A stretch of DNA of 64,000 bases, from positions 156,760 through 220,759 of the forward strand of contig QWHH01000001.1 in assembly GCA_021404785.1 (NCBI GenBank), given 5' to 3'. The DNA is from Lysobacterales bacterium PRO7. GTDB lineage: Bacteria; Pseudomonadota; Gammaproteobacteria; Xanthomonadales; Rhodanobacteraceae. Made by a program: the position numbers and the translations under genes. Shown in pieces: positions 8,148 through 60,012 of this stretch (positions are counted from its first letter, which is position 1; each line of letters opens with the position of its first letter). The notes beneath the pieces were generated by a model, which saw only the letters and a program-made list of their open reading frames with translations, made no database searches and had not been told where the DNA came from.

Positions 8148-11100
8148 ATGTCGTTGCGAATCGGAGTGGACTCCGCGCGTCTTGCCGCGCGGGGAGGAGT
8201 CGGGAGCGCGTTTTGTCTGCTGTCTTTCATCGCCGGACTGTCGGTTCCGGCACCCGCCCACGCCAGCGTGCAGTTGCAAGGCTTCGGGGTCACGCCATCC
8301 GGCCCGGGAATCAAGCCTGCCGCCACCGGTGCCGGCACACCCGCGCCGGTTCCGGCGACGTGGAGCGAACCGTTGCCATCGGCCGACGTGTATTCCGATT
8401 CGGTCGGCGCGACACCAGCAACCTATCGGACAGATGAGAGCGGTGCAGCGACGTATTCCGTGCCAATCTACGTGCCGCCGGGCACGGCGGGCCTCGTACC
8501 TGCGTTGTCGCTGGTGTACAACAACCGCGGCGCGAACGGCCCGATGGGACCGGGTTGGAGCCTGGGCGGCCTGTCGGCGATTTCGCGTTGTAAGAAGGCC
8601 ACCGAGTACGGCGATGGCGCCGGGCCGTTTCCTTCGGTCAATTTCGATGGCGTCGCCGCCGATCAAGCGTATTGCCTCGATGGCGCACGCCTGCTCGACC
8701 TGAACAATGGCGCGGGTAATTGTCCGGCCGGCCAGTCCGGCGACACCGCCCACGCGTTCGGCCTGGAACTGGATCCCGCCACGCGCGTGTGCGGCTATGC
8801 CAAGACCGGCATCACCGGCTACGCCTATTGGCTGGCGCAGCCCAAGGACGGCAGTTACCGCGTGTACGGCACGGGCGGCAATTCGGCGCTGGTCCACAAC
8901 GATGGGCAAGGCAACCCTGACGCCACCCAGTATTTCTCGTGGGCACTGAATCGTATTGCCGATACGACCGGCAATACGGTCGAGTTCAGCTACACGCAGA
9001 ACGCCGCCACCGGCGAGATGGATGTTGCCGAAGTCGACTACACCGGCAAGATGGCAATAAGCGGCGTACTCGCGGCCAGCCCGACGTTCACGCGCACGCC
9101 CTACGCGAAGGTCGTGTTTTCGTACGCGACGCTGCCGGCTGCCAGCCAGCGCATCGACTACGTGTCGGGCATGAAGCTCGCGCTCACGCAGCAGCTGACG
9201 ACCATCACGGTCAGCGGCCCATCCAACATCAACGGTGACATTGGCACGTCGCAGGTCGCGCGCACGTATCACCTGCGCTACGGCACGCCGACCGGCAGCG
9301 GTCTTTCGGCGCTGACCTCTTTGCAGGAGTGCGTGCCAAACGGCGCGGGCGAGGTGTGCTATCCACGCACGCAATTCACGTGGGACAACGCCAGCGTCCA
9401 TGCGCCCGGTTTTCCCGGCACGCCGTCCACGCAAAGCTATAGCGGTCTGCAATACGCGATCGACTACAAGGTCGGCGATGTGGATGGCGATGGCAGACAA
9501 GATTTAGTGTGGGTCAAGGATCAAAGCTGCGACAGCACGGGTTCCGGTGCCACGCGTTTCCAGATTTATGTGTCGCGCGCCACCGGCACCGGCTTTGCCA
9601 CGGCGGTCGCGACCGGCGTGTACCTGTCGCGTCCGCCGCAGACCGGCCAAGTCGCGCTGCCGACGTGCGGCGCCGACTGGCGTTCTTATCACTTCGATTC
9701 GCTGTGGTACCTGTACGATTTTTCCGGCGACGGCCGCGATGACCTGCTCGCCGCCAACGGCACGGCGTGGAACGGCACGGCGTGGACGGACATGACGTGG
9801 AAGATTTATCCGGCCATCGCCTCAGGTACGGATTACACCTTCGATCACGCCAATCCGGTTGCAACCGGAATTCCGTCATGGCCGAGCGACGACGGCCTGT
9901 TCCTCGACGAAAACGCCGATGGCCTGCCGGATCTGATGGATTCGACGGCGCAGGGCATCATCACCTCGCACCTGTTGCAAAAGCAGCCATCTGGCGCCGC
10001 GCTCACGTTCAATTTTTCCGCGACCGCGACGCCCGTCGTGTTCACCACGCCGGTGTTTGGCGGCAGCACCTCGACACAGGAACTGGGCTTTTCCACCGGC
10101 GCGGGCCGCGACGTGCTCAATGCCGATCTCAATGGAGACGGCGCCGCCGACATGGTGTTGAAGGTGACGCAGGATACCTGCGGGACGGGCGGCATGGCTC
10201 CCAGCGCCCTGACCGCGCAACCCACGTTCAGTCCGTCCTCGATCCCGGCTTCGCCAACCTGCCATACGCGCTGGTACACCTTCCGCAACGACGGCATTCA
10301 GGCCGATGGCCTGCACATGACCTACGAGACCTTTATCGGCGACACGCTGACGGTGCCGGACGACGGCAGTTTCATCAATCTGGTCGATCTCAACGGCGAC
10401 GGCCAGACGGATCTCGTCTACACCAAACTGGTCAGCGGCAACTACACGTATTACTACCGCCTCAACGCCGGCAAGTCCGGCGACGCGGCCGCGACCGAGC
10501 GCTTCCTGCCGGAACAATCCACCGGCCTGACGCTTTCCACGAACTACGCCGAGCGCGTGCAGTTTCTCGATGTCAACGGCGATCACAAAATCGACCTGCT
10601 GTACTGGGATGGCGTCAGCGACCCCAGCGGCACCTATCCGCTCAAGGCGATGCTGTGGGGCACGACGGGTTTCGGCAGCGCAGTCGATGTCGGAAATTTC
10701 ACGCTCAACGCGATGAACCCGCTGTCGACGCAATCGTTCCTGATGGACGTCAACGGCGATGGTGGCCCGGATATGGTGACTTACGCCGGCGGCAGCCTGT
10801 CCGTGTTCGGCTACGGCCCGGCCTTCGGTGGCAACGATTTCGTCACGTCGGTCGTCAATGGCTTGGGTGCCTCGACCGGCATCACGTATTACCCACTGGC
10901 GTATACGTCCGGTTATGCGCGCGCCTACGACGGCCCGGGAAAGAGTTGGGGCCGCGGCTCGCCGGTGTTCGACGTGTTCTCGGCGATCTGGGTGGTACAC
11001 AGAGCATCGAGCAGTGCGCCGCTGGCGGGAGATTCCACTGCATTTCCGTCGTCGAGTGCCGTCGTTTATCGCTACTCGGGCGCGAAGATTCAGGCGGGAG

Positions 11101-14100
11101 GACGCGGCTTCCTCGGCTTCGCCACCGTACAAGCCGAGAACCAGCAGCCGACGCAGGATACGTCCAAGTACCTCGTCACGACCACCGAGTACCGGCAGGA
11201 TTTTCCGTACATCGGCCGGCCCGATCACACGGTGGCAGAACTCGAATCGACGCTGCAACCCGATCCGTGCGTGAGCTCGCCAGGTGATTCGTGCTTCGTG
11301 CACAACCCGCCGCCCTGCGGCAGCCACGGCGTCATCTGCAACATTGCGCAGAGCGCTTCGATCGGAGTCGGTGGTCAGGTGTTGAGCGACGCGCAAGACG
11401 ACTACACGAGTACGCCGGCGTTTGCACCCGGCACTGTGCAGCCGCTGATGCCGTACCTGTCCAGTTCCGTCGAACAGAAGTTTGACGTCGCGACGCCTGG
11501 GGCATCGAGCCACGAGATCACAAGTTCCTTCGGCGAAGACATCTACGGCAACGTCACAAGTTCCTCGGTGATCAGCAGCGAGTCCGGTGTTACCGACGAG
11601 TCCAAGACGACAACGAACATCTACGGCTGCACGGTGTCGCCGCCGACGAAGAACTGTTCGACGCTCAGTACCGAATGGCAGCGACTCGGTCGCTTGTCGC
11701 TCAGCACGGTCACGAGCAGCCGGCCCGGACAGACCAATAACCTGCGCCGCGCCAGTTTCGAGTACGACCCGACGACTCTACTGCGCATCGCCGACATTCA
11801 AGGGCCTTACGACTCGACCGACGAACCGATCGTCAACGTCCTCAAGACGATGAGTCTGCGAACGGACCTCATTCGCGATGCTGATGGCAACGTGATTGAG
11901 CAGGTGCAGTGCAGCACCTATCACTTCGCCAATCGCGCGGCCTGCACGGATTTGACCAATTTTCAGCAACGCCAGTGGCAATCCGATCCGACCAAGATTC
12001 AGCGCTACGCCAAGTGGAGCTATGAATCGTTGGGACGCTTCGAGCTGTACAAGCTTGCACCATTCTATTCAGCGAGTGCGGCGAATAACACGGACGAGAA
12101 CATCGCCGAGTACGTCGGCATCGCCTTGTCCGGCAGTTCGCCGATGCGGGCGTTTACGCCGCAGGCGATTCTTCCCGTCGTCGTCAACCGCGACGTGTTC
12201 GGCAATCCGGCGAACAAGGTATCCGCCGCCGGCGATCAGTGGTCGATGGTGTATGGCACATTGGGCCGTGCGTATTTTGCCGAAGACGTAACCACTGGCG
12301 GCTTCTCGCGCACGACGTACACGTGGTGCAAGGATGCAAACAGCACCGACATTCCCGCCGCGGCGCCTCGCGCCAACTGCCCGGTCGGTGGCGTCTATCG
12401 CGTAACGACCGACAGCACCGCCAGCAGCACGTATGCGGGCCAGAGCATCGCGCCGACGACGTGGGCGTACTTCGACGTGCTCGGACGCGAGATATTGCGC
12501 ACCAAGCGCATCTACCAGCAAAGTGCTACCAGTAAGTTTCACTGGTCGAGCGTGGCCACGACCTACGACAGCACGGGCCGTAACGCGACGGTGTCCACGC
12601 CGTATCTTTCCATCGACCCGACGACGACGCAGACCGGCGTGGCATCCAGCCGCGCGGGCACATTGCAGACCGGCGCCAGCGCGCCAGGCACCGCGACCGC
12701 GACCTACGATGCAGTGGATCGGGCCACTGATCAAAGCCATCCGGAAGAGGCGGCGAACACGCCCAGCGATTCGACGTGGAATTATTCGACGTTGACCACG
12801 ACCGCAACCAATCCGCGCGGCTACAAAACGCAGCAGGTCAAGAACGCGCGCGACGAAGTCATGCAGATCGCCGCGCCGTTCGGCCAGAGCAATGCGCTGA
12901 CCGTCTCCTATGGCCGCGATGCGGTGGGCAATCTGACCAGCATTTCGCGCACGCCGGCGGACGGTAGTTCGGCCGGCCATCTCATTCAGACCTCGATGAT
13001 CTACGATCGTCTGGGCCGCAAGACCGGCATGACCGATCCGGACAAGGGCGGCTGGACATACAGCTACAACGCACTTGGCGAACCCGTCCAACAAATCGAC
13101 GCGAAGGGCCAGACGCAGAACCAGTACCGCGATGCGCTGGGCCGGCTGTATCTGCGCACGGAGAACCGGAGTAACGGCAGTGGCGGCTTCACCTCGGAGC
13201 CGTCTGGCGCGTGGGAGTTCGACACGGCGTTGCGCAGCGACGGATCGACGATTCTGGGCGTAATCCACAGCGAGTCCAACGGCATTGGCGGCTTCACGCG
13301 CACCACGGAATACAACGACTATGGCCGCGTGGATCACTCGGTCACGCAGATGGACGGATACTCGTATACCGAGCGTCAGACTTGGGATCAGTTCGGTCGT
13401 CCGTTCCAGCACTTCGACCCGAGCACCACGGTATCCAACGCGGGCGAACTGACGATCTACTCGACCGACGGCTATCCGATCCAGACCCAGGAAGCCGCCG
13501 ACAGCGTAAACGGCGTTTACTACGACACGGTGATCGCCCTGTCCGAACGCGGTCAGGTGACGGACGAGATTTTCCACAACAACGCGGCATTGGAGAGTAC
13601 ACGCACGTTCGATCACGCCACCGGGCGCGCCTTGACCATCGACGCGGGCAGCGGCGCGCTGCAGAACTGGAGCTACGACTACGATAAACACAGCAATGTG
13701 CTGTATCGGCTGAACCACGCGACCGGCTACAACCTGCGCGAGGACTTCACCTACGACAATCTGGATCGGCTGCAAACCGTGAAGCTGACGGTCAACGGCG
13801 CGGTGCAGGGCACGGTGACGAGCGCCTACGATCAACTGGGCAATCCCACCAGCCGGGGCAGCCAAAGCTGGACGTATGCCACGCTGGAAACCGGCTGCAC
13901 CCAATATGCCGGGCCGCACGCGGCGAGCAAACTCGGCAGCTCCACGTACTGCTACGACGCGAACGGCAATCAGACCACGGCCAACTACGGCGGCGGACAA
14001 ACCCGCACGATCACGTACACCGGCTACGACTTGCCGGCGCAGATTGCGACGAACGGCTACCCGAGCAATGCCACGGAAAGTTTTGCCTATGCGCCGGATC

Positions 14101-15725
14101 GCGGCATGTTCAAGCGCGTGGAAGGCATCACCGGCGGCACGAACGACAATATCTTCTGCAACGGCTTTGACACCACTACGAACACCTGTCCGAACACCGC
14201 GAGCAGTGCCGCGACGACGTACTACGTGGGCAACGTCGAGGCGCGCATCAGCGGCAGCAGCACGACGACCAAGCGCTATATCGGCGGCTACCTCGTCGTC
14301 ACCACGACGAACACGAATCCGACGCCGGTCTACGCCTACCTGTTCCGCGATGCGCTCGGCTCCATCGACGTGATTGCCAACGAACTGGCGCAAATACAGC
14401 AGCGGCAGAGCTTCGACGTGTGGGGCAATCGCAGAGACGCGAGCGCCAGCGGCGGCTGGGGCTTGCTGCCCACGGCCACGGCGGCGAGCTTCGATACCAG
14501 TCGAACCTTCCAGGGCTACACCGGACACCAGCAACTCGATCCGGTAGGCCTAGTTCACATGAAGGGCCGCCTCTACGATCCCCAACTGGGCCGGTTTATC
14601 CAAGCCGACCCGATGACGGAACGCGATCCCACGCAGGGGCTGAATCGCTACAGCTATGTCCTCAACAACCCGATGAGCCTCACAGACCCGAGCGGGGATC
14701 TCAGTTTTCGGCAAATACTTGGCATCGCGATCGCTGTTGTGGCAGCTTACTTCGGACAATACGAACTTTCGCGCGATGCGCTGGCGTGGAGCTTTGGTGT
14801 ATCGGTGGCCGGCGGCTTCCTGTCCGCCTACGTGGCGACGGGAAGTCTGAAAGCGGGACTGTGGGGCGCGTTTGCGGCTGGAGTATTCTGGGGCATCGGC
14901 ACGGCATTTTCGGACGTGGCCGGAGGACCCATGCAAGACGGCTCGGCCATGACGATGCGCTACAGCACGGGCAGCTTCGCGGCGAAGATCGCCGCGCATG
15001 CGGCTGGCGGCGGCGTCATCAGCAGCCTTGAAGGCGGTAATTTTGGATCGGGATTTTTGGCTGCCGGCGCGACAGAAGTATTGTCGCCAGCAATCGAGAA
15101 AATGGACAATGTGCCAGGGCAAATCATGGCTGCGGCTATGGTTGGTGGCACCGTCTCGAAGATAAGCGGGGGTCGATTTGCCACAGGTGCCGAAACTGCA
15201 CTATTTCAAGAATTGTTCAATCACGTTGTTCACAGCGCGATGCAGGAGGCATTAGCCAAGAACTATAGCGAGGACAAGCCTTACTACCATAGATACGGCG
15301 GCGAGGGCGAAGGCGACTGGGCAGTTTGCGTGCGCAGCGACGCGTGGTGCACTCAGCCCAACGGCTATGCAGCGTTGATCAATGGCTTTGCCTACCCTGG
15401 GCAGGATCACCCTGTCGAAGACGGTAGCAGTGAGGAAGTCTGGTTCGCTGGAGTAAGCGCTGGTCACATTTATACTTTTACCGAACCGGATACGTACTCA
15501 ATTTTCAATTTGACTGCTCCCGACCATATTTTCTACAGCGGCTACGTCTGGCGAAGCGTGGTATGGGAGGGTGACACCCTATACTTGCGGACATATGGCG
15601 AAGGTAATGATTCAGGTTTCTTGAGTTGGTTCGGCAACATGGAGCTTTGGAAACCTGGGTTTAATCAATACAACTACCAGTTCCGTTATCAGATGATCCA
15701 GAACTGGCTGAAGGAGCAACCATGA
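8148..15725 (+). CDS. rhs: Giant RHS/YD-repeat polymorphic toxin: signal peptide, SpvB-like domain, FG-GAP/VCBS repeats, RHS core, C-terminal payload
   Basis: GAATYSVPIYVPPGTAGLVPALSLVY, repeated GDVDGDGRQD/DLNGDG motifs, YDRLGR/YDQLGN repeats, GYTGHQQLD, GRFIQADP, NNPMSLTDPSG; RBS gagggg. Confidence 0.95.
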   Translation: MSLRIGVDSARLAARGGVGSAFCLLSFIAGLSVPAPAHASVQLQGFGVTPSGPGIKPAATGAGTPAPVPATWSEPLPSADVYSDSVGATPATYRTDESGAATYSVPIYVPPGTAGLVPALSLVYNNRGANGPMGPGWSLGGLSAISRCKKATEYGDGAGPFPSVNFDGVAADQAYCLDGARLLDLNNGAGNCPAGQSGDTAHAFGLELDPATRVCGYAKTGITGYAYWLAQPKDGSYRVYGTGGNSALVHNDGQGNPDATQYFSWALNRIADTTGNTVEFSYTQNAATGEMDVAEVDYTGKMAISGVLAASPTFTRTPYAKVVFSYATLPAASQRIDYVSGMKLALTQQLTTITVSGPSNINGDIGTSQVARTYHLRYGTPTGSGLSALTSLQECVPNGAGEVCYPRTQFTWDNASVHAPGFPGTPSTQSYSGLQYAIDYKVGDVDGDGRQDLVWVKDQSCDSTGSGATRFQIYVSRATGTGFATAVATGVYLSRPPQTGQVALPTCGADWRSYHFDSLWYLYDFSGDGRDDLLAANGTAWNGTAWTDMTWKIYPAIASGTDYTFDHANPVATGIPSWPSDDGLFLDENADGLPDLMDSTAQGIITSHLLQKQPSGAALTFNFSATATPVVFTTPVFGGSTSTQELGFSTGAGRDVLNADLNGDGAADMVLKVTQDTCGTGGMAPSALTAQPTFSPSSIPASPTCHTRWYTFRNDGIQADGLHMTYETFIGDTLTVPDDGSFINLVDLNGDGQTDLVYTKLVSGNYTYYYRLNAGKSGDAAATERFLPEQSTGLTLSTNYAERVQFLDVNGDHKIDLLYWDGVSDPSGTYPLKAMLWGTTGFGSAVDVGNFTLNAMNPLSTQSFLMDVNGDGGPDMVTYAGGSLSVFGYGPAFGGNDFVTSVVNGLGASTGITYYPLAYTSGYARAYDGPGKSWGRGSPVFDVFSAIWVVHRASSSAPLAGDSTAFPSSSAVVYRYSGAKIQAGGRGFLGFATVQAENQQPTQDTSKYLVTTTEYRQDFPYIGRPDHTVAELESTLQPDPCVSSPGDSCFVHNPPPCGSHGVICNIAQSASIGVGGQVLSDAQDDYTSTPAFAPGTVQPLMPYLSSSVEQKFDVATPGASSHEITSSFGEDIYGNVTSSSVISSESGVTDESKTTTNIYGCTVSPPTKNCSTLSTEWQRLGRLSLSTVTSSRPGQTNNLRRASFEYDPTTLLRIADIQGPYDSTDEPIVNVLKTMSLRTDLIRDADGNVIEQVQCSTYHFANRAACTDLTNFQQRQWQSDPTKIQRYAKWSYESLGRFELYKLAPFYSASAANNTDENIAEYVGIALSGSSPMRAFTPQAILPVVVNRDVFGNPANKVSAAGDQWSMVYGTLGRAYFAEDVTTGGFSRTTYTWCKDANSTDIPAAAPRANCPVGGVYRVTTDSTASSTYAGQSIAPTTWAYFDVLGREILRTKRIYQQSATSKFHWSSVATTYDSTGRNATVSTPYLSIDPTTTQTGVASSRAGTLQTGASAPGTATATYDAVDRATDQSHPEEAANTPSDSTWNYSTLTTTATNPRGYKTQQVKNARDEVMQIAAPFGQSNALTVSYGRDAVGNLTSISRTPADGSSAGHLIQTSMIYDRLGRKTGMTDPDKGGWTYSYNALGEPVQQIDAKGQTQNQYRDALGRLYLRTENRSNGSGGFTSEPSGAWEFDTALRSDGSTILGVIHSESNGIGGFTRTTEYNDYGRVDHSVTQMDGYSYTERQTWDQFGRPFQHFDPSTTVSNAGELTIYSTDGYPIQTQEAADSVNGVYYDTVIALSERGQVTDEIFHNNAALESTRTFDHATGRALTIDAGSGALQNWSYDYDKHSNVLYRLNHATGYNLREDFTYDNLDRLQTVKLTVNGAVQGTVTSAYDQLGNPTSRGSQSWTYATLETGCTQYAGPHAASKLGSSTYCYDANGNQTTANYGGGQTRTITYTGYDLPAQIATNGYPSNATESFAYAPDRGMFKRVEGITGGTNDNIFCNGFDTTTNTCPNTASSAATTYYVGNVEARISGSSTTTKRYIGGYLVVTTTNTNPTPVYAYLFRDALGSIDVIANELAQIQQRQSFDVWGNRRDASASGGWGLLPTATAASFDTSRTFQGYTGHQQLDPVGLVHMKGRLYDPQLGRFIQADPMTERDPTQGLNRYSYVLNNPMSLTDPSGDLSFRQILGIAIAVVAAYFGQYELSRDALAWSFGVSVAGGFLSAYVATGSLKAGLWGAFAAGVFWGIGTAFSDVAGGPMQDGSAMTMRYSTGSFAAKIAAHAAGGGVISSLEGGNFGSGFLAAGATEVLSPAIEKMDNVPGQIMAAAMVGGTVSKISGGRFATGAETALFQELFNHVVHSAMQEALAKNYSEDKPYYHRYGGEGEGDWAVCVRSDAWCTQPNGYAALINGFAYPGQDHPVEDGSSEEVWFAGVSAGHIYTFTEPDTYSIFNLTAPDHIFYSGYVWRSVVWEGDTLYLRTYGEGNDSGFLSWFGNMELWKPGFNQYNYQFRYQMIQNWLKEQP

Positions 15726-21108: not shown

Positions 21109-22026
21109 ATGACCGACTCCGGAACCGGCGCGCTCAGCCGCCACGATGCGCGCTTCATCCGCGATGCCCTGTCCATTCAGGACGCCGATCCGCGCGATAC
21201 GCACAATCTCGGCTATACGGCGCGCATTCTCACCATCGCCACGCTCCCGCACCGCGCCCAGCCGGGGGACCATTTCGAGCGCACGAATGGGAATTACCGG
21301 CTGGTCGTGCAGGCGATGCCGGGCGCCGGCCTGCCGTTCGGCAGCTATCCACGTCTGTTGCTGGCGTGGCTTGCCACGGAAATCGTGCGCACGCGGCAGC
21401 GGGAGCTTGCCATCGGCGCCTCGATGGCGGACTTCCTGCGCCAGCTTGGCCTCGGGCGTAGCGGCGGGCGTGCGGCTCACGCGCGCAGTGCCGGCACGAT
21501 CCATCGGCTTAAATGCCAAATCATGAGCCTGTTCGGCTCGCGGCTCATCCTGCACAAGCAGTCCTCGCGCGAGCAGATCGAACTGCTGCAGATCGGCGAG
21601 AGGTTTGACTTCTGGACCGATCCCGCGAAACCCGGTGTGCTGCCCGGAACCTTGCGCGTCAGCGAACCCTTGTACGAGCATATCCTGCGCGCGCCCGTGC
21701 CCGTGGACCTGCGCGCCTTGCGCGCGCTGAAACGCTCGCCGCTGGCATTGGACGTGTATACCTGGCTTACGCACCGCAACTTCGTCCAGCAGAACGGCGG
21801 ACGCAAGCAAGCCATGGTTCCCTGGGGCGCCTTGCAGCGGCAGTTCGGTTCAGATTACCCACTCGACAGCCGCGGACGCGCCGACTTCAAGAAGGCGTTT
21901 CACAGTGCCTATCGGCGCGTGCAACTGGTTTATCCGAAAGCCAGTGTCCGCGACAACGGCGATTGCCTGACCCTGATCACGACCGCGCCGCACATTCGTA
22001 CCCATCGGTTGATCGGTACGCGCTGA
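21109..22026 (+). CDS. repA: Plasmid-type replication initiator (RepA_C family)
   Basis: GLPFGSYPRLLLAWLATE, SPLALDVYTWLTHR, WGALQRQFGSDY. Confidence 0.92.
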   Translation: MTDSGTGALSRHDARFIRDALSIQDADPRDTHNLGYTARILTIATLPHRAQPGDHFERTNGNYRLVVQAMPGAGLPFGSYPRLLLAWLATEIVRTRQRELAIGASMADFLRQLGLGRSGGRAAHARSAGTIHRLKCQIMSLFGSRLILHKQSSREQIELLQIGERFDFWTDPAKPGVLPGTLRVSEPLYEHILRAPVPVDLRALRALKRSPLALDVYTWLTHRNFVQQNGGRKQAMVPWGALQRQFGSDYPLDSRGRADFKKAFHSAYRRVQLVYPKASVRDNGDCLTLITTAPHIRTHRLIGTR

Positions 22027-22348: not shown

Positions 22349-22399
22349 AACGGCTAGAGCGGGGGGGCTTGCAAAATAGATCGCATAGTTGGTCTAATT

Positions 22400-22430: not shown

Positions 22431-22814
22431 ATGAAATGCTGGCTCGTGGGATTGGTGGCTTTCGTGAACACGGCAGGAGCCGTGCCGCTGTATCTGGAAC
22501 TGGACGGCGCGTACTACACCGTCGCGCCCGGCAGTACGGTCGAATACGAAGGCAGCGCCTGGGTTGCGCCACAAACCTCCATGATCGGCTGCAATCGCCG
22601 CAACAACCAGGTGCAGCAGTTCTCCGACTTCGATCTGTTCTACGGCCCCAATCTCGACGTCGTGTACTTGTCGGCAAGCACGTATTCGTGCGTCGGCGAT
22701 GCGGTGGATGAGGCGTGCGTGCTCGCCATGACGAGCACAACCGGCGACATCGTCTGCGGCGGCGCGGTTGCCGCACCCGATCCGATATTCGCGAACGGCT
22801 TCGAGAGCCGATAG
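22431..22814 (+). CDS. Small secreted protein with C-terminal DPIFANGFE motif
   Basis: Signal peptide MKCWLVGLVAFVNTAGA; ends PDPIFANGFESR. Confidence 0.8.
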   Translation: MKCWLVGLVAFVNTAGAVPLYLELDGAYYTVAPGSTVEYEGSAWVAPQTSMIGCNRRNNQVQQFSDFDLFYGPNLDVVYLSASTYSCVGDAVDEACVLAMTSTTGDIVCGGAVAAPDPIFANGFESR

Positions 22815-22835: not shown

Positions 22836-23606
22836 ATGACCCGTATCATCGCCTGCGCCAACCTCAAAGGCGGCGAGGGCAAGACGACCATCGCGCGGCA
22901 CTTGGCCTATCACGCGGCATCGCGCGGATTGAAGACATTGGCGGTCGATCTCGATCCGCAGGGCAATCTGACCGATTCCCTCATGCCCGAGGGCGAAGGG
23001 ACGTACACGCAATCTTCCGGTTTGTTCGAGTCCGGTTTTTCGCATGCGAAATTGCACCTGGCCGAATCCGACCGGAACCTCTCGCTGCTACCGGCCGACG
23101 CGCGACTGGATACGCTGGCCGAAATACCCGGCAGCCGCAGCGCGTTCGTGCAACGCGTGCGCGCGAACCTGCGCGCCATCGCGGATTTCGATGTGATTGT
23201 GGTCGATACGCCGACCAATGCGCCGATCTGCTACTTGGCGGGGTTGGCCGCGGCCGATGGTGCCGTCTCGCCGGTGCAGATGGATGTGTATGGCATATCC
23301 GGCGCGGTGCGCCTGACCCAGGCGATCCAGCGCGTGCGCGCGCACTACAACCCGCGCCTGATCCACATCGGTTTTGTGGTGAATCGCTTCAACAGTCGCG
23401 CGGCCTCGCATGCGCAACTGCTAGAGCAGTTCCGGGCCAAGCGCTTGCGCCTGCTCTCCACCGTGTTGCGCGAGCGCGTGGCCGTGCAGGATGCGCTGGG
23501 CCGGCGCATGCCGGTGTGGCGCGGCCCGCGCGGGCGGGTGAACACCCGCGCCGCGCGCGAGATGCGCGCGCTGTGCGCGGAAGTCTTGGCCGGAGTCGGG
23601 CTGTGA
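22836..23606 (+). CDS. parA: ParA family ATPase
   Basis: NLKGGEGKTT Walker A variant, DLDPQGNLT, IVVDTP. Confidence 0.95.
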   Translation: MTRIIACANLKGGEGKTTIARHLAYHAASRGLKTLAVDLDPQGNLTDSLMPEGEGTYTQSSGLFESGFSHAKLHLAESDRNLSLLPADARLDTLAEIPGSRSAFVQRVRANLRAIADFDVIVVDTPTNAPICYLAGLAAADGAVSPVQMDVYGISGAVRLTQAIQRVRAHYNPRLIHIGFVVNRFNSRAASHAQLLEQFRAKRLRLLSTVLRERVAVQDALGRRMPVWRGPRGRVNTRAAREMRALCAEVLAGVGL

Positions 23607-32253: not shown

Positions 32254-32312
32254 CTCCCTTCGCGTTGTAACACCGCGCGGTCGCGCGGTGCGCGTGTTTG
32301 CGGGAGATCATC

Positions 32313-34103
32313 ATGTCATCGAATGTATTTTCAGGGTTCGCGTGTGGAATCGATAACCCCGCGCGCAGGCGATTTGTACAAGGTGTGACGCTTGGTGGAG
32401 TCGCCATGCTCGGCGGTTTCGTCAAGCCGGCGTGGGCGCTGACGGAAAGCGCATCGTCGAGCGTGCTGTCCGGAACCGACTTCGCGCTGGAGATCGGCGA
32501 GACGCCGGTCAACTTCACCGGCGCTGCGCGCACGGCGACCACGGTCAACGGCTTGCTGCCCGGGCCGACGTTACGCTGGCGTGAAGGCACCACAGTCACG
32601 CTGCGTGTGACCAACCGTCTGCGCGTGCCGACCTCGATCCACTGGCACGGCATCATCCTGCCGGCGAACATGGACGGCGTGCCGGGCTTGAGTTTTCCCG
32701 GCATCGCGCCGGGTGAAACCTTCACCTACCGTTTTCCGGTGAGGCAGAGCGGCACCTACTGGTACCACAGCCATTCCGGATTTCAGGAACAAACCGGCCT
32801 GTACGGCGCGCTGGTGATCGATCCGGCGACACCCGATCCGATCCGCGCCGAACGCGAGTATGTGGTCATGCTCAACGATTGGACGGACGAGGACCCGTCC
32901 GCGGTCTTCGCGCACCTGAAAAAGTTGAGCGATTACTACAACCGCGGCGAGCCGACCGCCCGCGATTTTCTAGCCGACGTTTCACGCGTGGGACTCAAGC
33001 AGGCGTTGGCGTCGCGCAAGATGTGGAACGAAATGCGCATGAGCCCGCGCGATCTGGTCGATGTTACCGGTGCGACCTACACGTACCTGATGAATGGACA
33101 TGCGCCGGCAGGAAATTGGACAGGCTTATTCAAACCCGGCGAGCGCGTGCGCCTGCGTTTCATCAATAGTTCGTCCAACAGTTTTTTCGACGTACGCATT
33201 CCAGGATTGAAACTGCGCGTCGTCGCCGCCGACGGGCAGAACGTGGAGCCGGTTGAGGTGGACGAATTCCGCATTGCCGTAGCGGAAACCTACGATGTGA
33301 TCGTTGCGCCGCAAGAAGATCGCGCTTACGCGATCTTCGCGCAGTCGATGAGCCGCGACGGTTACGCGCGCGGCACACTGGCAACGCGCACGGGGACACA
33401 AGTGCAAGTGCCCGCACTCGATCCGCTGCCGACCTTGTCGATGCTCGACATGATGGGCGCGATGGCGCAAGGCGGTGCGCATTCCATGCACGGTATGGAT
33501 CATGGCTCGATGTCTGGCATGGATCACGGCTCGATGTCCGGCATGGACATGGCCGGCATGGCGATGGCTGTGATGCCGAAGGTGCGCCACGCGCGCAGTG
33601 AATACGACAACCCGAACGTCGACATGCATGTGGACACGCCACGTATCAATCTGGACGACCCCGGCATCGGACTGCGTGACAACGGCCGCCGCGTGCTGAC
33701 TTACGCCGATCTGCACACGCTCGGTGGCTCGTTGTATCCGCAAACTCCGGTGACGCGCGAAATCGAACTGCACCTGACCGGCAATATGCACCGCTTTGTC
33801 TGGGGATTCGACGGCCTGAAGTTCTCGCAAGCCAAGCCGCTGCATTTCCGCCATGGCGAACATGTGCGGCTGGTCCTGGTCAACGACACCATGATGACGC
33901 ATCCGATCCATCTGCACGGCATGTGGAGCGAACTTGAATCGCCGGATCAGGAATTTCAGGTGCGCAAGCACACCATCAGCGTGCAGCCGGCGCAGCGCGT
34001 GACCTACCGCGTGATGGCCGATGCGCTCGGGCGCTGGGCCTACCATTGCCATCTGCTGTACCACATGGAAGCGGGCATGTTCCGCGAGGTGGTGGTGTCA
34101 TGA
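32313..34103 (+). CDS. copA: Multicopper oxidase CopA
   Basis: Tat RR signal; HWHG, WYHSH, HPIHLHG, HCHLLYHMEAGM; Met-rich insert. Confidence 0.97.
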   Translation: MSSNVFSGFACGIDNPARRRFVQGVTLGGVAMLGGFVKPAWALTESASSSVLSGTDFALEIGETPVNFTGAARTATTVNGLLPGPTLRWREGTTVTLRVTNRLRVPTSIHWHGIILPANMDGVPGLSFPGIAPGETFTYRFPVRQSGTYWYHSHSGFQEQTGLYGALVIDPATPDPIRAEREYVVMLNDWTDEDPSAVFAHLKKLSDYYNRGEPTARDFLADVSRVGLKQALASRKMWNEMRMSPRDLVDVTGATYTYLMNGHAPAGNWTGLFKPGERVRLRFINSSSNSFFDVRIPGLKLRVVAADGQNVEPVEVDEFRIAVAETYDVIVAPQEDRAYAIFAQSMSRDGYARGTLATRTGTQVQVPALDPLPTLSMLDMMGAMAQGGAHSMHGMDHGSMSGMDHGSMSGMDMAGMAMAVMPKVRHARSEYDNPNVDMHVDTPRINLDDPGIGLRDNGRRVLTYADLHTLGGSLYPQTPVTREIELHLTGNMHRFVWGFDGLKFSQAKPLHFRHGEHVRLVLVNDTMMTHPIHLHGMWSELESPDQEFQVRKHTISVQPAQRVTYRVMADALGRWAYHCHLLYHMEAGMFREVVVS

Positions 34104-35284
34104 GGACAACGACATTTTTGCTTGCGGGATTGTGCGCAGCGTTCGTCGCAGCGCCAGCATTCGCACAGGATTCGATGCGGGGCATGGATATGTCGCAGAT
34201 GCACGATCAGGCAAAGAAACCCGCCAAACCGGCCACGAAGAAGAAGTCACACACGGCGCAGAAGACGCAAACGCAAGAGCCGAAACCGGACGCGCATTCG
34301 ATGCCGGACATGGATATGTCTTCGATGCCGGGCATGGCGATGCCGCCGCCGCAACAGCAGGCACCGACCGGACCGCACACGCAACACACGGGCGCAATGC
34401 CCGGCATGGACATGTCACCCAAGCAACGCGAGCGGATGCAACCGCCGCCGAACCTGACCGGTGCGATACAACGCCTCGACGTTGGTTCACAGATTGGCGT
34501 CCGGCCCGTGGAACGCGGTTTGAATCTCGAAAGCATGCAAATGGACATGCAGGGCATGCAGATGCAGGGCGGCAAGGCACCCGCCGATGCGCGCAGTCCG
34601 GATTATTCCGATGGCGCCGGTCACGGGGACATGACCGGCATGGACATGCGCGACGACGCGCCGCTCGGCATGTTGTTGTTCGATCGTCTGGAGTATTTCG
34701 ACGGCCGCGATGTCAACGGTGCGGCACTGGAGGCGCAGGCCTGGTATGGCAACGACGCCAACAAGCTGTGGCTGAAAGCCGAAGGCGAGCGCAGCGACGG
34801 ACGCCTGCAGGAATTGCGCAGCGAAGCACTTTGGGCTCACCCGATCGGCATCTACTGGAATACGCAGCTCGGCATTCGGCACGACTTCGGCGTTGGTCCG
34901 GATCGAACCTGGGCCGCGTTCGGTGTGCAGGGCCTCGCGCCATACTGGTTCGATGTTGATGCCGCGCTGTATGTGGGCGAGTCGGGACGCACGGCGTTGC
35001 GCTTCGAGTCCGAATACGAATTGTTGCTGACCCAGCGTCTGATCCTGCAGCCGCGCGTCGAGATCAATTTCTATGGCCGCGACGATCCGCGGCGCGACAT
35101 CGGCTCGGGCTTGTCCGATGCCGAACTCGGACTGCGTCTGCGTTACGAATTCACCCGCCAGTTCGCGCCCTACGTCGGCGTGGAAGCCGCGCGCAAGTTC
35201 GGCAAGACCGCGGATTTCGCCCGCAGTGCCGGCGAATCCGCATTCGATCCGCGCTTGGTCGCTGGGTTTCGCATCTGGTTCTGA
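34100..35284 (+). CDS. copB: Copper resistance outer-membrane protein CopB
   Basis: Met-rich N-terminus, GVQGLAPYWFDVDA, LRLRYEFTRQFAPYVG, terminal WF. Confidence 0.95.
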   Translation: MRTTTFLLAGLCAAFVAAPAFAQDSMRGMDMSQMHDQAKKPAKPATKKKSHTAQKTQTQEPKPDAHSMPDMDMSSMPGMAMPPPQQQAPTGPHTQHTGAMPGMDMSPKQRERMQPPPNLTGAIQRLDVGSQIGVRPVERGLNLESMQMDMQGMQMQGGKAPADARSPDYSDGAGHGDMTGMDMRDDAPLGMLLFDRLEYFDGRDVNGAALEAQAWYGNDANKLWLKAEGERSDGRLQELRSEALWAHPIGIYWNTQLGIRHDFGVGPDRTWAAFGVQGLAPYWFDVDAALYVGESGRTALRFESEYELLLTQRLILQPRVEINFYGRDDPRRDIGSGLSDAELGLRLRYEFTRQFAPYVGVEAARKFGKTADFARSAGESAFDPRLVAGFRIWF

Positions 35285-35299
35285 CACGAGGAGAGCAAC

Positions 35300-35860
35300 A
35301 TGAAAAAGCGTACCGAATACCTTGCCGTCGTCGTCGTCGTTCTCATCGCTATCTGTGCGGGTTTGGGCATCTTCGCCTGGTCCGGTCTGTACAACATCGG
35401 CGCGGACGATCCGCACTGGAGTGTGACGTTTCGCATCATGCAGAGCGTGCGCGACCGCTCCATCCACGTGCGCTCGGAGAACATCAAGGTGCCGAATCTC
35501 GACGATCCGCAACTAATCCTCAAAGGCGCGGGTCAGTATGCGGCAATGTGCACCGGTTGCCATCTTGCGCCGGGCATGGCGACTTCCGAAATCCGCCCCG
35601 GTCTGTATCCGCAACCGCCCGTGCTTTGGCAGACGCGGGTCGATCCGCAGGACGCCTTCTGGGTGATCAAGCACGGCATCAAGATGAGTGCGATGCCGGC
35701 CTGGGGCGGGAGCCACGACGATGACACGATCTGGAGCATGGTCGCGTTCCTGCAAAAGCTTCCCGGCATGACACCCGAACAATACAAGGCGATCGTCGCC
35801 AAAGCACCGCCAGACGAGGACATGAAGATGGACATGGATCATGCGCATGCACACGAGTAG
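35300..35860 (+). CDS. c-type cytochrome
   Basis: CTGCH heme motif; FWVIKHGIKMSAMPAWG. Confidence 0.9.
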   Translation: MKKRTEYLAVVVVVLIAICAGLGIFAWSGLYNIGADDPHWSVTFRIMQSVRDRSIHVRSENIKVPNLDDPQLILKGAGQYAAMCTGCHLAPGMATSEIRPGLYPQPPVLWQTRVDPQDAFWVIKHGIKMSAMPAWGGSHDDDTIWSMVAFLQKLPGMTPEQYKAIVAKAPPDEDMKMDMDHAHAHE

Positions 35861-41634: not shown

Positions 41635-41662
41635 CTCTGGATCATGCTCCAAGGTTTAGGAT
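41631..41662 (+). promoter_or_regulatory. MerR-type promoter/operator
   Basis: TTGACT-20 bp-TAGGAT with dyad ACTCTGGA...TCCAAGGT resembling the ZntR/CueR operator. Confidence 0.75.
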
Positions 41663-41669
41663 GGCGTTC

Positions 41670-42098
41670 ATGGATACGATAAACGCTTCCCACATGACTA
41701 TCGGCGCCGCCGCGCGCCGCGCCGGCGTCGGCATCGACACCATCCGCTACTGCGAGCGCGAGGGCCTGCTGCCGCTACCACGGCGGCGGCTGTCCGGCTA
41801 TCGCGACTACGACGCCGGTGTGATCGAGCGCCTGCATTTTATCCGCCGCGCCAAGGGGCTCGGCTTCACGCTCGGCGAAATCCGCGAGCTTTTGACACTG
41901 TCGTCAGATCGCGAACGCGGCGTGCGCGGCGTCAAGCAGCGCGCCGAGAAACGACTGACCGAGGTCGAAGGTCGCATCGACGAACTCAAGCGCGTGCGGC
42001 GCGGGCTGAAATTTTTGATCGACGCCTGTCCGGGACATGGTGCATTGGAACATTGTCCGATCCTGCGTACGCTCGGCAACGAGGAGAGCAACTTATGA
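41670..42098 (+). CDS. MerR-family heavy-metal-responsive regulator (CueR-like); start at 41670 or 41694
   Basis: [39 protein letters not shown]-terminal [10 protein letters not shown]. Confidence 0.92.
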
Positions 42099-57550: not shown

Positions 57551-57574
57551 GTTCGAATCCTAGTCTCCCAGCCA
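57551..57574 (+). other. Attachment site: displaced 3' end of a tRNA, probably tRNA-Gln
   Basis: GTTCGAATCCTAGTCTCCCAGCCA = T-loop, 3' T-stem, acceptor strand, A72, G73, CCA; the matching 5' half is absent. Confidence 0.85.
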
Positions 57575-58299: not shown

Positions 58300-60012
58300 T
58301 CAATCAAAACCGTTCGCGAAGATCGTGTCGACGCTCATCTCCACGACGTATCCGCTGGTGCCGCCGTCGACATCCAGGCGCCAGCCGGAATAGTAGGTTT
58401 CGTTCGCATCGCTTTGCGTGGTCCAGTCGAGTGCGCTTAGGGTGGCGTTCGCCGGCGCGAGTACGCGGATCAGCATAGGGCCGGCCCGCGCGGTCTTGCC
58501 ACTGATGACAGGTTGCACCGGCGTATTGACCTGAAACGTCGCCGTGGTTCCGCTGCCGAGCGCGAATGCATCGCTGACCGTCAGCTTGTGTCCGCCGAAA
58601 TCGATCGTGCGCTGCCACGAAGTCAGCGCAGCGCTGCCGTTGTAAGCGGGCGTGAGATTCGCCACCGCATGCACCGCGCCGCCCGCGCCCGGCGTCACGG
58701 TCATCGTCGATGTCGTGCCTTCGCGCTGCGGCACGATAACCCCGGACTTTTCGAAGCGCACGACATTGTTGGTGTCGGTGCCCTGCTGGATGCCGCTGTG
58801 CGTCCAGATGTTCTCGGTTACCGCGAGCCAGTCGTCCTCGAACAGCGTGAATGCGCCCTGATCCTGGTGCGCATGACTTTGCACATACGGCCCGGCGCTG
58901 AAGTTCAGCCACATCGCCTTGGTGTCCCAACCGGTGCGCGAAAACAGCTGCCCCGTTCCCGATGCGTAATAAGTCAACGACGCGGGCGGTGCACCGGCAT
59001 CACCTGCCGGCAGCAGGTTGTGCCGATAGTTGAAGCTGCTTTGCATGTCCTGGTCGGAAATCGAATGCAGCCACCACGATGCGTTTTCGCGCGCCGTCGC
59101 ATTGTTCGTCAGATAGCGGGCTTCGAGCATCAGGTGCCGGTGGTAGTCGTAGATCACCGGCTCGGACACGCGCGCCTGATCACCGATCGCGGCGACGCGG
59201 TCGAGCGTTGGCACGGTGGCATGAATCCACCATTGGATGCTGTCGGTCAGGTGTGCATTGGCATTGGCGAGGTCGCCACCCATCGCGTCGTGCCACACGC
59301 GATACAACGTGAACAGCTCGCGGTGCGACAAACCGTAGGCGGTGCCTTCCTGGCTGCCGCCGCCGGGGATACTAGCCGTGTAGGCCATTTGTTCCGGCCA
59401 ACGCGTGTTGGTCAGGTAATTAAGGCACGTCACGCCGGTCACGCAGGGCGAACTGTTCGAGGCCAGGCCCCAGTACATCGACGCACGCAGGAAGCTGTAG
59501 TGATAGTTGTTGGCCGGATCGTCCACGCCCCAGCCGCTCCACGGAAACGCATTGCCGCCCCATTGCGCCTGACCGGCATGCCATACGTTCCAGACCGCTT
59601 GTTCGGCATAGGCCGCCCAGCGTGTGCGTTGGCTGCCCGATACATGATCCGCGCACCAGTCGTAAGTCAGCGCGAGATCCTCGATCATCGGACCGACTTC
59701 CAGATACGAATCGCCGGAAATATCCGGACGGCCACCACCGGCGATGGCGGTTTCAGCAGCGGATACCTGCGCCTCGACCGTGTTCACCGCCAGCGTGGCG
59801 TATTGCGGCTGTCCGGTGAGCTTGTACATGTACGCCGCATCGGCGGCGGAAAAACCGTAGTCCGGATTGCCAGCGACGGCCTTGTCCACGAAACTCTTGA
59901 AGCGGGTGAACTCGGCCGAGTTCTGATTGACGTAGGACAAGTCGATATCGATCGCGGCCCGGGCCGGGAGACTCGCCAACAGCCAAATCAGCAGCCAGAG
60001 TTTTCCTGTCAT
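58300..60012 (-). CDS. Secreted protein with heparinase II/III-like C-terminal region and DTIFANGFD tail
   Basis: Signal peptide ending PARA; HAHQDQGAFTLF motif; FSRTGWD. Confidence 0.75.
   Translation of the reverse strand: MTGKLWLLIWLLASLPARAAIDIDLSYVNQNSAEFTRFKSFVDKAVAGNPDYGFSAADAAYMYKLTGQPQYATLAVNTVEAQVSAAETAIAGGGRPDISGDSYLEVGPMIEDLALTYDWCADHVSGSQRTRWAAYAEQAVWNVWHAGQAQWGGNAFPWSGWGVDDPANNYHYSFLRASMYWGLASNSSPCVTGVTCLNYLTNTRWPEQMAYTASIPGGGSQEGTAYGLSHRELFTLYRVWHDAMGGDLANANAHLTDSIQWWIHATVPTLDRVAAIGDQARVSEPVIYDYHRHLMLEARYLTNNATARENASWWLHSISDQDMQSSFNYRHNLLPAGDAGAPPASLTYYASGTGQLFSRTGWDTKAMWLNFSAGPYVQSHAHQDQGAFTLFEDDWLAVTENIWTHSGIQQGTDTNNVVRFEKSGVIVPQREGTTSTMTVTPGAGGAVHAVANLTPAYNGSAALTSWQRTIDFGGHKLTVSDAFALGSGTTATFQVNTPVQPVISGKTARAGPMLIRVLAPANATLSALDWTTQSDANETYYSGWRLDVDGGTSGYVVEMSVDTIFANGFD

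What the first reader, a model, noticed from the sequence alone, without database searches (positions are those of the whole stretch)
22431..22814. D-x-I-F-x-N-G-F-D/E C-terminal tag shared by an ICE gene and a host gene: candidate protein-sorting signal
Seen: two otherwise unrelated signal-peptide proteins end in the same motif, DPIFANGFESR (ICE, 22431-22814) and DTIFANGFD (chromosome, 58300-60012). I recall such tails on many exported proteins of Rhodanobacteraceae-like genomes but know no characterised function. Inference: a C-terminal sorting or anchoring signal analogous in logic to PEP-CTERM or T9SS CTDs. The ICE copy heads the par-tra gene run, so the element may use a host export or anchoring pathway.
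Basis: partly seen in the sequence, partly recalled or inferred. Interest (0 to 1): 0.65.

Follow-up and report, generated by a model that had tools for sequence, protein, structure and literature searches.

The report
Short GFE tag on exported proteins
About forty unrelated exported proteins of this soil bacterium, one of them encoded on a mobile element, end in the same nine-residue peptide (D-x-I-F-x-N/D-G-F-E/D); it behaves like an undescribed address or docking label, and what reads it is still unknown.

Summary
Both ORFs end as described. A whole-genome scan finds 46 copies of the core motif, 36 of them within 12 residues of a stop codon. Shuffled proteomes give 1.5 and 0.045. Nearly all carriers have Sec signal peptides, and they belong to at least 15 unrelated families.

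The tail is disordered and conserved in orthologues through synonymous codon change. It sits where homologues carry membrane-anchor sorting signals.

In about 900 sampled Pseudomonadota genomes, multi-copy tails occur only in this order (Lysobacterales/Xanthomonadales). There they are present or absent even within one genus.

The ICE gene belongs to a family of small exported proteins that nearly always carry one to three tails. In its close relatives it is syntenic between repA and parA, and I found it only in tail-positive hosts.

The tail has no membrane helix, also occurs at N-termini, internally and in tandem, and meets no known sorting-signal definition.

I tested and rejected three candidate readers: Ser/Thr kinases, a legumain-like peptidase, and type II secretion as a requirement.

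Most likely it is a non-covalent docking or sorting tag with an unknown reader. The scan has already reported this tag on at least nine other genomes.

The parts
22431..22814 (+). ICE gene for a 127-aa exported beta-rich protein ending in the tag. It is the first gene of the parA-parB run.
   Evidence: There are 34 close homologues (50-91% identity), and 28 of the 29 aligned keep ...APDPIF[AG][ND][GS]F[DE]x. The gene is syntenic in RepA-[gene]-ParA-ParB-DUF2840-S26-SLT-relaxase and abuts or overlaps parA.
22779..22805 (+). Codons for the tag D-P-I-F-A-N-G-F-E of the ICE protein. Two more residues (S, R) follow before the stop.
   Evidence: pattern hit at G000:C16:179544-179563. Homologues keep the same peptide with synonymous changes in most tag codons. 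AF2 gives pLDDT below 50 for most of residues 112-127, including the whole tag.
58300..60012 (-). Host (chromosomal) gene for a 570-aa exported polysaccharide-lyase-like enzyme ending in the tag.
   Evidence: AF2 gives pLDDT 82.9 and pTM 0.84, with an alpha-toroid plus a beta-sandwich. Top Foldseek matches are GAG lyase 8khw (TM 0.69), alginate lyase Atu3025 and heparinase II. All 120 best homologues (63-100% identity; Rudaea, Dokdonella, Lysobacterales) keep the tail or a near variant.
58303..58329 (-). Codons for the tag D-T-I-F-A-N-G-F-D, directly before the stop codon.
   Evidence: pattern hit at C16:215063-215082. The last beta strand of the fold is residues 554-561, and the tail residues 564-570 have pLDDT below 50.
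14145..14171 (+). Internal copy of the tag (D-N-I-F-C-N-G-F-D), followed by a Thr-rich stretch, inside the ICE's 2525-aa signal-peptide RHS protein (8148-15725).
   Evidence: C16 + strand, 2532-aa segment, motif at residue 2006. It shows that the ICE carries a second tagged exported protein and that the tag need not be terminal.
21109..22026 (+). ICE RepA, the gene upstream of the tagged gene.
   Evidence: PF04796, E = 6e-23.
22836..23606 (+). ICE ParA, starting 22 bp after the tagged gene's stop.
   Evidence: AAA_31 and CbiA hits.
57551..57574 (.). Right-end copy of the 24-bp direct repeat that bounds the 66.6-kb ICE. It places the 570-aa gene outside the element.
   Evidence: GTTCGAATCCTAGTCTCCCAGCCA at C16:147757 and C16:214310.

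Best explanation
The peptide D-x-[I/V/L]-F-x-[N/D]-G-F-[E/D/G] is a short, flexible linear tag that Lysobacterales/Xanthomonadales bacteria attach to Sec-exported proteins. It usually forms the last 7-15 residues, right after the final secondary-structure element of the fold.

Most likely a still unidentified envelope component binds it non-covalently. That binding would hold or route otherwise unrelated hydrolases, lyases, beta-helix and beta-propeller proteins at the cell surface (a docking or retention label, or a hand-over label for an outer-membrane route).

The ICE encodes its own tagged proteins: the small protein ahead of parAB, and an RHS protein with an internal tag. The element's exported products would therefore be handled by the same host system.

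Shown here: existence, enrichment, restriction to exported proteins, purifying selection, disorder, the taxonomic on/off pattern, occupancy of the sorting-signal slot, and tolerance of position and tandem copies. Inferred: that a dedicated reader exists, that binding is non-covalent, and that the destination is the cell surface.
For: - Enrichment: 36 C-terminal copies against 0.045 expected. Signal peptides on 29 of 35 carriers against a 29% background.
- The carriers belong to at least 15 unrelated families: choice-of-anchor Q x8, delta-60 propellers x3, S8 x2, M36, M12, GH44, endonuclease I, beta-lactamase fold, GSDH, PEBP and lyase.
- Selection on the peptide: S8 orthologues at 44-86% identity across about ten families of the order all keep a tail at the exact C-terminus, with sequence drift. 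All 120 lyase homologues keep it or a near variant. The ICE homologues differ by synonymous changes in most tag codons.
- Slot equivalence: homologues in tail-negative genomes of the same genus end in ...PAPGPG-TM-RR or ...PALDTW-TM anchors.
- The tail is disordered in both AF2 models.
- Binding-like behaviour: there are copies straight after a signal peptide, internal copies followed by Thr/Pro linkers, a variable 0-8 residues after the motif, and tandem double or triple tails in many members of the ICE protein's family.
- System-like distribution: counts per genome run from 0 to 133. In the close-relative sample, 4 of 18 genus members have none and the other 14 have 11-59. Reverse-pattern controls are about 0. 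No genome outside the order has more than 3 coding hits, among about 690 sampled.
- ICE link: the family is always tagged, is syntenic, and was found only in tail-positive genomes, 9 of 9 including this one.
Against: - No reader was identified. The recurrent neighbours (Pkinase-TPR kinases plus ECF sigma factors) occur in all 31 relatives, tail-negative ones included, and pair with choice-of-anchor Q proteins whatever their anchor type.
- The legumain-type peptidase is present in tail-negative genomes and missing from tail-positive ones.
- Type II secretion is associated with the tail but is not required.
- Localisation is untested. Some carriers (PEBP, GSDH, endonuclease I) belong to families that are periplasmic in other bacteria, so 'surface' is not established.
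- Presence/absence profiling cannot detect a reader that is a universal envelope protein or a glycan.
- The DNA pattern finds only the Ile-type tails. Some 'negative' families use variants (VFTDGYE, MFSDRFE), so the on/off picture is partly a detection effect outside the own genus.
Confidence: 0.5

Rival explanations
1. The tail is a covalent sorting signal. A transpeptidase or endopeptidase would cleave within it, for example after the Asn/Asp of [N/D]-G-F, and attach the new C-terminus to a lipid, LPS or peptidoglycan. This is what sortase, PorU and rhombosortase do with their signals.
For: - The tail occupies the slot of such signals.
- The invariant [N/D]-G followed by a hydrophobic residue resembles the Asx-Gly-Leu sites of legumain-type ligases (my own knowledge).
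- At least three residues always follow the Asx.
- The genome encodes a Peptidase_C13 homologue.
Against: - The C13 gene is present in all 18 genus members, including the four tail-negative ones. It is absent from tail-positive G020, G022 and G027.
- There is no TM helix to hold the substrate at a membrane enzyme.
- Tandem double and triple tails and N-terminal copies make little sense for a single-cut signal.
Confidence: 0.15
2. The tail is a targeting signal for the type II secretion system (Xps type), marking periplasmic folded proteins for export.
For: - In 201 genomes of the order, 84 of the 85 with at least 10 tail hits have GspL, against 31 of 68 tail-zero genomes.
- In the own family, all 8 tail-positive genomes have a strong GspL hit (E <= 1e-20). 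All 20 tail-zero genomes have none or a weak one.
- The own genome has gspI, L, M and N.
Against: - G042 (18 hits, 14 of them true C-terminal tails) and G039 (9 hits, 8 of them tails) lack GspL, GspM and GspI.
- G007 and G010 keep an orthologous T2SS locus but have no tails.
- Tail-zero genera of family f2 (g13, g55) have GspL but no tails.
- Related genomes are not independent data points.
Confidence: 0.1
3. No dedicated reader exists. The acidic-aromatic hairpin acts on its own. It might stick to LPS or the outer leaflet (possibly through Ca2+), or it might cap flexible C-termini against tail-specific periplasmic proteases.
For: - No co-varying gene was found.
- The motif has two Phe flanking an N/D-G turn, plus acidic residues.
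- It works at either end of a protein and in tandem.
Against: - A generic physicochemical role does not explain such strict sequence conservation: G and the second F in 36 of 36 copies, D at -2 in 31 of 36.
- It also does not explain the confinement to one order or the all-or-none pattern within a genus.
Confidence: 0.15
4. The tail is an artefact: a repeated DNA element or chance ORF extension at gene 3' ends.
For: None found.
Against: - Codons differ freely between copies while the residues are kept.
- The x positions vary.
- The reverse-pattern control is about 0.
- Shuffles give 0.045 C-terminal copies against 36 observed.
Confidence: 0.01

Closest known systems
GlyGly-CTERM / rhombosortase (for example Vibrio cholerae VesB; my own knowledge)
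   Same: It is a C-terminal tag on Sec-exported enzymes of Gammaproteobacteria, and it leads to cell-surface retention of secreted hydrolases. The M36 peptidase here is related to the 'rhombosortase-dependent M36' family. Tail abundance also tracks T2SS presence statistically.
   Different: GlyGly-CTERM is tripartite (motif, TM helix, basic residues) and is cleaved by an intramembrane protease. The GFE tail has no TM segment, ends 0-8 residues after the motif, and also occurs at N-termini and in tandem. Rhombosortase itself was not searched for.
PEP-CTERM/exosortase and IPTL-CTERM
   Same: These occupy the same slot on the same protein families. Choice-of-anchor Q homologues in tail-negative genomes of the same genus end in Pro-rich motif + TM + Arg anchors. 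The own genome also has about 6 [IV]PTP[AM]L-TM-RR proteins.
   Different: The tripartite architecture is absent from the GFE tail. Both kinds coexist in this genome, so one is not simply a replacement for the other.
T9SS C-terminal domain (CTD)
   Same: It is a C-terminal label on many unrelated Sec-exported enzymes in one lineage, with dozens of copies per genome.
   Different: The CTD is a folded beta-sandwich of about 70-100 residues that PorU removes. Here the label is 7-9 disordered residues, in Gammaproteobacteria.
Dockerin-cohesin and other peptide-docking systems (PTS1/PEX5, EEVD/TPR)
   Same: This is what it most works like: a portable label added to unrelated enzymes, tolerant of position, sometimes duplicated, and presumably read by binding rather than by cleavage.
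   Different: No cohesin-like or TPR receptor has been identified. The periplasmic/TPR kinases next to some carriers do not co-vary with the tag. The tag is also far shorter than a dockerin.
NCBIfam sort_motif_YLP (NF050076, an 'ultrashort' putative sorting motif)
   Same: It is an 11-position sorting-motif model, comparable in length to the GFE tail.
   Different: Its best hits in this genome score 12.8 bits (cut-off 15), and none lies on a tail protein. It is a different motif.

Membership tests
Tripartite C-terminal sorting signals (LPXTG, PEP-CTERM, IPTL-CTERM, GlyGly-CTERM, MYXO-CTERM) | A signature motif followed by a hydrophobic TM helix of about 15-20 residues and a basic cluster at the extreme C-terminus. 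| tested here: not met
   0-8 non-hydrophobic residues follow the motif in all 36 C-terminal copies. Genuine tripartite tails exist on other proteins of this genome.
Tripartite C-terminal sorting signals (LPXTG, PEP-CTERM, IPTL-CTERM, GlyGly-CTERM, MYXO-CTERM) | Match to the curated NCBIfam/TIGRFAM sorting-domain models. | tested here: not met
   The NCBIfam scan of 37 tail proteins listed the 25 most frequent of 36 matched families, and none is a sorting-domain model. Neither of the two finding proteins has such a hit.
Tripartite C-terminal sorting signals (LPXTG, PEP-CTERM, IPTL-CTERM, GlyGly-CTERM, MYXO-CTERM) | Co-occurrence with a dedicated sortase, exosortase or rhombosortase. | not tested
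   These enzyme families were not profiled against the tail.
T9SS CTD | A folded C-terminal beta-sandwich domain of about 70-100 aa (TIGR04183/PF18962). | tested here: not met
   The tail is 7-9 residues with pLDDT below 50 and starts right after the last strand of the catalytic fold. No such Pfam or NCBIfam hit was found.
Type II secretion substrates with a linear signal | The tag occurs only where a T2SS is present. | tested here: not met
   There is a strong association (84/85 against 31/68). However, G042 and G039 carry true tails without GspL, GspM or GspI.
Legumain-type (C13) Asx-specific transpeptidase substrates | Co-occurrence of the tag with the C13 enzyme. | tested here: not met
   C13 is in 18 of 18 genus members, including 4 tail-negative ones. 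It is absent from tail-positive G020, G022 and G027.
sort_motif_YLP (NF050076) | Score above the model's cut-off on the tails. | tested here: not met
   The best score is 12.8 bits (cut-off 15), and the hits are not on tail proteins.
Tn4371-type ICE backbone (context of the tagged gene) | RepA-ParA-ParB, a DUF3363 relaxase, the TraG coupling protein, trbB/E/L/G/I genes and flanking direct repeats. | tested here: met
   Assignment to the Tn4371 family by name rests on my own knowledge of that gene order.
Polysaccharide lyase, (alpha/alpha) toroid + beta-sandwich (heparinase II/III-like), for the 570-aa protein | The fold, and a match to the family profiles. | tested here: inconclusive
   The fold is met (Foldseek E = 1e-18, TM 0.69 to 8khw). 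The sequence profiles score below their cut-offs (PF07940 16.4 against 24 bits). Catalytic residues were not checked.

The most novel reading that the evidence does not exclude
The GFE tail is the address label of a previously unrecognised envelope sorting or docking system, confined to Lysobacterales/Xanthomonadales with a longer cousin in Acidobacteria. Its reader is a dedicated receptor or outer-membrane route that works independently of type II secretion. Conjugative elements have adopted the label so that their own exported proteins (a small ParAB-linked protein and an RHS toxin) are placed by the host system.
Probability: 0.4. Interest if true: 0.85.

Novelty: new variant of a known kind. 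Interest (0 to 1): 0.65.

Why it matters
Known terminal sorting signals (LPXTG, PEP-CTERM, GlyGly-CTERM, T9SS CTD) each led to the discovery of a dedicated machine. This tag marks 30 to more than 100 exported proteins per genome across most families of a large order of soil and water bacteria. Many of those proteins are polymer-degrading enzymes.

The tag was not found in most sampled genomes of one large family of the order, or in most genera of this genome's own family. That may explain why the tag has gone unreported.

Finding its reader would explain how these bacteria keep or route their exoenzymes. It would also give a very short portable tag for surface display. It would further show that mobile elements tailor their exported proteins to a host-lineage sorting code, which could limit or reveal ICE host range.

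Tried and rejected
1. Six kinases and two sigma factors flank tail genes. But kinases occur in all 31 relatives (4-33 matches per genome), tail-negative ones included. In tail-negative G011 a kinase-like gene sits next to a choice-of-anchor Q protein that has a TM anchor. The link is therefore to that protein family, not to the tail.

2. Legumain (C13) Asx-Gly transpeptidase. The distribution is wrong.

3. T2SS as a requirement. Rejected by G042 and G039. Only a statistical association remains.

4. Slam/T11SS (PF04575). No hit in the own genome, but nothing rang in the control genomes either, so this is uninformative.

5. Other recurrent neighbours (the DUF1800-DUF1501 pair twice, LysR, SDR, deaminase, thioredoxin-TPR). 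Uninformative.

6. Extra genes at the T2SS locus (an M16 peptidase and others). Not shared by other tail-positive loci.

7. S8 subtilase as a universal tail-bearing core component. Present in only 18 of 31 relatives.

8. ICE RepA in tail-negative hosts. Only three distant homologues were found, in unrelated plasmid-like contexts, so no test was possible.

9. AF2 of the small ICE protein. The model was too poor (pLDDT 54) for a fold search.

10. Scaffoldin-like repeat proteins. My self-BLAST screen returned nothing usable.

11. Literature. No paper contains the tail strings or describes the motif.

12. Full gene-by-gene phylogenetic profiling.

Full report
**Observation**

Both ORFs are as described. 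Window 22431-22814 (+) encodes a 127-aa protein. Its ATG is preceded by GGAG 9 nt upstream, so the longer TTG start at 22398 is unlikely. It has a Sec-type leader and ends ...APDPIFANGFESR. Window 58300-60012 (-) encodes a 570-aa protein with a leader and ends ...SVDTIFANGFD.

The two proteins are unrelated. The small one has no Pfam or NCBIfam match. The large one models confidently (pLDDT 82.9, pTM 0.84) as an (alpha/alpha) toroid plus beta-sandwich. Its best structural matches are glycosaminoglycan and alginate lyases and heparinase II (8khw, TM 0.69, E = 1e-18).

**Is it more than chance?**

I had the whole genome laid in the Python box: 2.81 Mb, 19 contigs, 63% GC, with the window at C16:156760-220759.

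- A slightly wider core gives 46 hits in called genes, 36 of them C-terminal. Two hundred residue-shuffled proteomes give 1.54 and 0.045.
- The logo is sharp. D at -2 occurs in 31 of 36, then I 30, F 35, x, D 19 / N 17, G 36, F 36, and E 18 / D 10 / G 8. Between 0 and 8 unconserved residues follow.
- Essentially every full-length carrier starts with a signal peptide. A crude predictor passes 29 of 35 against 29% of other proteins, p = 1e-10.
- The 37 carriers I scanned belong to at least 15 unrelated families. These are choice-of-anchor Q (8), delta-60 propellers (3), S8 subtilases (2), M36 and M12 peptidases, GH44, endonuclease I, a beta-lactamase-fold esterase, PQQ-dehydrogenase-like, PEBP, BNR/sortilin and the lyase.

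**It is selected as a peptide, not as DNA**

- Copies use different codons and different x residues.
- Orthologues of one S8 protease, at 44-86% identity across about ten families of the order, all keep a tail at the exact C-terminus, with drift. Examples are ADTIFKNGFE, EVIFMDGFDGG, DVIFIDGFDD, ETIFTDDWEGNAP, LIVVSGFE, EPVFTDGYEN, HLVFSNGFE, WLFWNGFE and DTLFFSGF.
- All 120 best homologues of the 570-aa lyase (63-100% identity; source names Rudaea sp., Dokdonella fugitiva, Lysobacterales) keep the tail or a one-residue variant.
- In both AF2 models the tail is unstructured (pLDDT below 50). In the lyase it begins two residues after the last beta strand.

**The ICE gene**

The surroundings are a Tn4371-type conjugative element:

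- RepA, the tagged ORF, ParA and ParB;
- a DUF3363 relaxase, TraG and TrbB;
- a copper/Cus/P-type ATPase cargo;
- TrbE, TrbL, TrbG and TrbI.

The element is bounded by a 24-bp direct repeat 66.6 kb apart. The right copy lies at window 57551-57574, so the lyase gene is a host gene about 730 bp outside the element.

The small ORF is a real gene.

- It has 34 close homologues (50-91% identity). 28 of the 29 aligned end ...APDPIF[AG][ND][GS]F[DE]x, and the exception, P0032, diverges into a longer unrelated C-terminus.
- The homologues lie in the same place, abutting or overlapping parA.
- They differ by synonymous changes in most tag codons.
- A profile search of 1.8 billion representatives finds a wider family: 84 clusters of small signal-peptide proteins. 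At least 67 of the 83 beyond the query's own cluster end in the tail, often in two or three tandem copies.
- The own genome has only the ICE copy.
- Every genome found to carry the family is tail-positive. These are two uncultured Gammaproteobacteria MAGs (35 and 25 pattern hits) and six of 201 order genomes. That makes 9 of 9 including this one. This is weak evidence, because the profile includes the tail itself.
- The ICE's signal-peptide RHS protein carries an internal copy of the tag at 14145-14171.

**Distribution**

The DNA pattern for I-F-x-[ND]-G-F-[DE] has a reverse-pattern control of about 0.

- In 31 close relatives the count is bimodal. Fourteen of 18 genus members have 11-59 hits, and four have none. 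One of those four is 100% complete.
- In 201 genomes of the order that are at least 90% complete, 133 have hits, up to 133 per genome. Some families are all positive (7/7, 27/27, 10/10, 26/27, 16/16). The own family is mostly negative (7/27), and another large family almost wholly so (2/28).
- Outside the order, about 300 Gammaproteobacteria and about 390 other Pseudomonadota never exceed 3 coding hits.
- Caveat: the pattern detects only Ile-type tails. Two 'negative' families actually use variants (VFTDGYE, MFSDRFE).
- The tail-negative genomes in the own genus look truly negative. They lack the S8 gene altogether. Their choice-of-anchor Q homologues end in Pro-rich motif + TM helix + Arg anchors.
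- The own genome also has about six [IV]PTP[AM]L-TM-RR proteins, so both kinds of ending coexist.

**What reads it?**

I tested the candidates I could.

- Kinases. The only recurrent neighbours of tail genes are Pkinase-TPR kinases (6) and ECF sigma factors (2). They do not discriminate. All 31 relatives have them, and the kinase/choice-of-anchor-Q pairing persists where the anchor is a TM tail. The link is to that protein family, not to the tag.
- Type II secretion. GspL is found in 84 of the 85 genomes with at least 10 tail hits, against 31 of 68 tail-zero genomes. Within the own family the match is perfect. But G042 (14 true C-terminal tails) and G039 (8) lack GspL, GspM and GspI. G007 and G010 keep an orthologous T2SS without tails. 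T2SS is therefore associated, not required. Related genomes are also not independent data points.
- A legumain-type Asx-Gly transpeptidase, suggested by the invariant [ND]-G-F. A C13 gene exists, but its distribution is wrong.
- NF050076 (YLP motif) is a different motif. The Slam search was uninformative, because nothing rang in the control genomes either. Other neighbours and extra genes at the T2SS locus gave nothing.

**Mechanism**

Several features fit a short linear motif that is bound, and fit a signal that is cut once less well:

- the tag tolerates 0-8 trailing residues;
- it sits directly after a signal peptide in one protein;
- it occurs internally, followed by Thr/Pro linkers;
- it is duplicated or triplicated in tandem in several lineages.

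It also sits in the slot that NCBIfam's 'choice-of-anchor' concept reserves for surface-sorting signals. My best reading (about 0.5) is a non-covalent docking or sorting label for exported proteins, read by an unidentified envelope component. The rivals are:

- covalent processing (0.15);
- a T2SS signal (0.1);
- a reader-less physicochemical role (0.15);
- an artefact (below 0.01).

**Comparison and novelty**

The tag works most like a dockerin-type or PTS1-type docking label. It occupies the slot of PEP-CTERM, IPTL-CTERM and GlyGly-CTERM signals. It fails the defining architecture of all of these and of the T9SS CTD.

No paper in the searchable library mentions the motif. This scan has reported the same tag on at least nine other genomes.

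New here:

- the order-level confinement and the within-genus on/off pattern;
- rejection of the kinase, C13 and strict-T2SS hypotheses;
- a tail-obligate small-protein family on ICEs.

Noticed in passing
G000:C16:147757-147780 and window 57551-57574: A 24-bp perfect direct repeat, GTTCGAATCCTAGTCTCCCAGCCA, which looks like a tRNA 3' end. It bounds the ICE at 66.6 kb. No tRNA gene is called inside the window itself.
   Followed up: partly
G000:C1:104471-107983, C1:112188-115666, C4:79771-83266, C4:152664-155216, C7:21955-24747, C16:348036-351113: Large Ser/Thr kinase + TPR proteins lie next to choice-of-anchor Q beta-helix genes, and two of them have an adjacent PF07638 ECF sigma factor. A kinase query gives 14 matches in this 2.8-Mb genome and 4-33 in each relative. 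This looks like a conserved sensing module whose partner protein can carry either anchor type.
   Followed up: partly
G000: C1:150825-151466, C2:118774-119808, C4:61990-64635, C6:10545-11522, C9:23266-23853, C13:59469-60884: Six proteins end in [IV]PTP[AM]L[SD]-x-hydrophobic helix-RR(R). These are IPTL-CTERM-like tripartite anchors, and they coexist with the GFE tails.
   Followed up: no
G000:C6:74562-75125; also remote homologues P0155, P0207 and P0218 of the ICE protein: Tandem tails such as ...DHIFGDGFEVTDRIFADGFGP, with up to three copies in some homologues. The tag is duplicated as a unit.
   Followed up: partly
G000:C1:245463-249314 and C16:282899-286606: A DUF1800-DUF1501 gene pair occurs twice. 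In C1 it is followed in the same orientation by a 176-aa tail protein.
   Followed up: no
G000:C18:20542-20955: A Peptidase_C13 (legumain family) homologue is conserved in all 18 sampled members of the genus. Its function here is unknown, and it is unrelated to the tail.
   Followed up: partly
G000:C4:139026-141680: An 884-aa choice-of-anchor-Q-like protein ends ...AYDRIFADNFDGTPTP. This is a variant tail with Asn in place of the otherwise invariant Gly.
   Followed up: no
window 32298-44344: The ICE cargo between trbB and trbE is a copper/metal resistance block: a multicopper oxidase, an outer-membrane efflux protein, an AcrB/CusA-type pump and a heavy-metal P-type ATPase.
   Followed up: no
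G375 (another Gammaproteobacteria genome), five sites: The identical 20-mer ATTTTTTAAGATGGCTTCGA occurs five times. It contains a stop codon, so it is a dispersed non-coding repeat and not a tail. It is the only non-order genome with more than 3 pattern hits.
   Followed up: no
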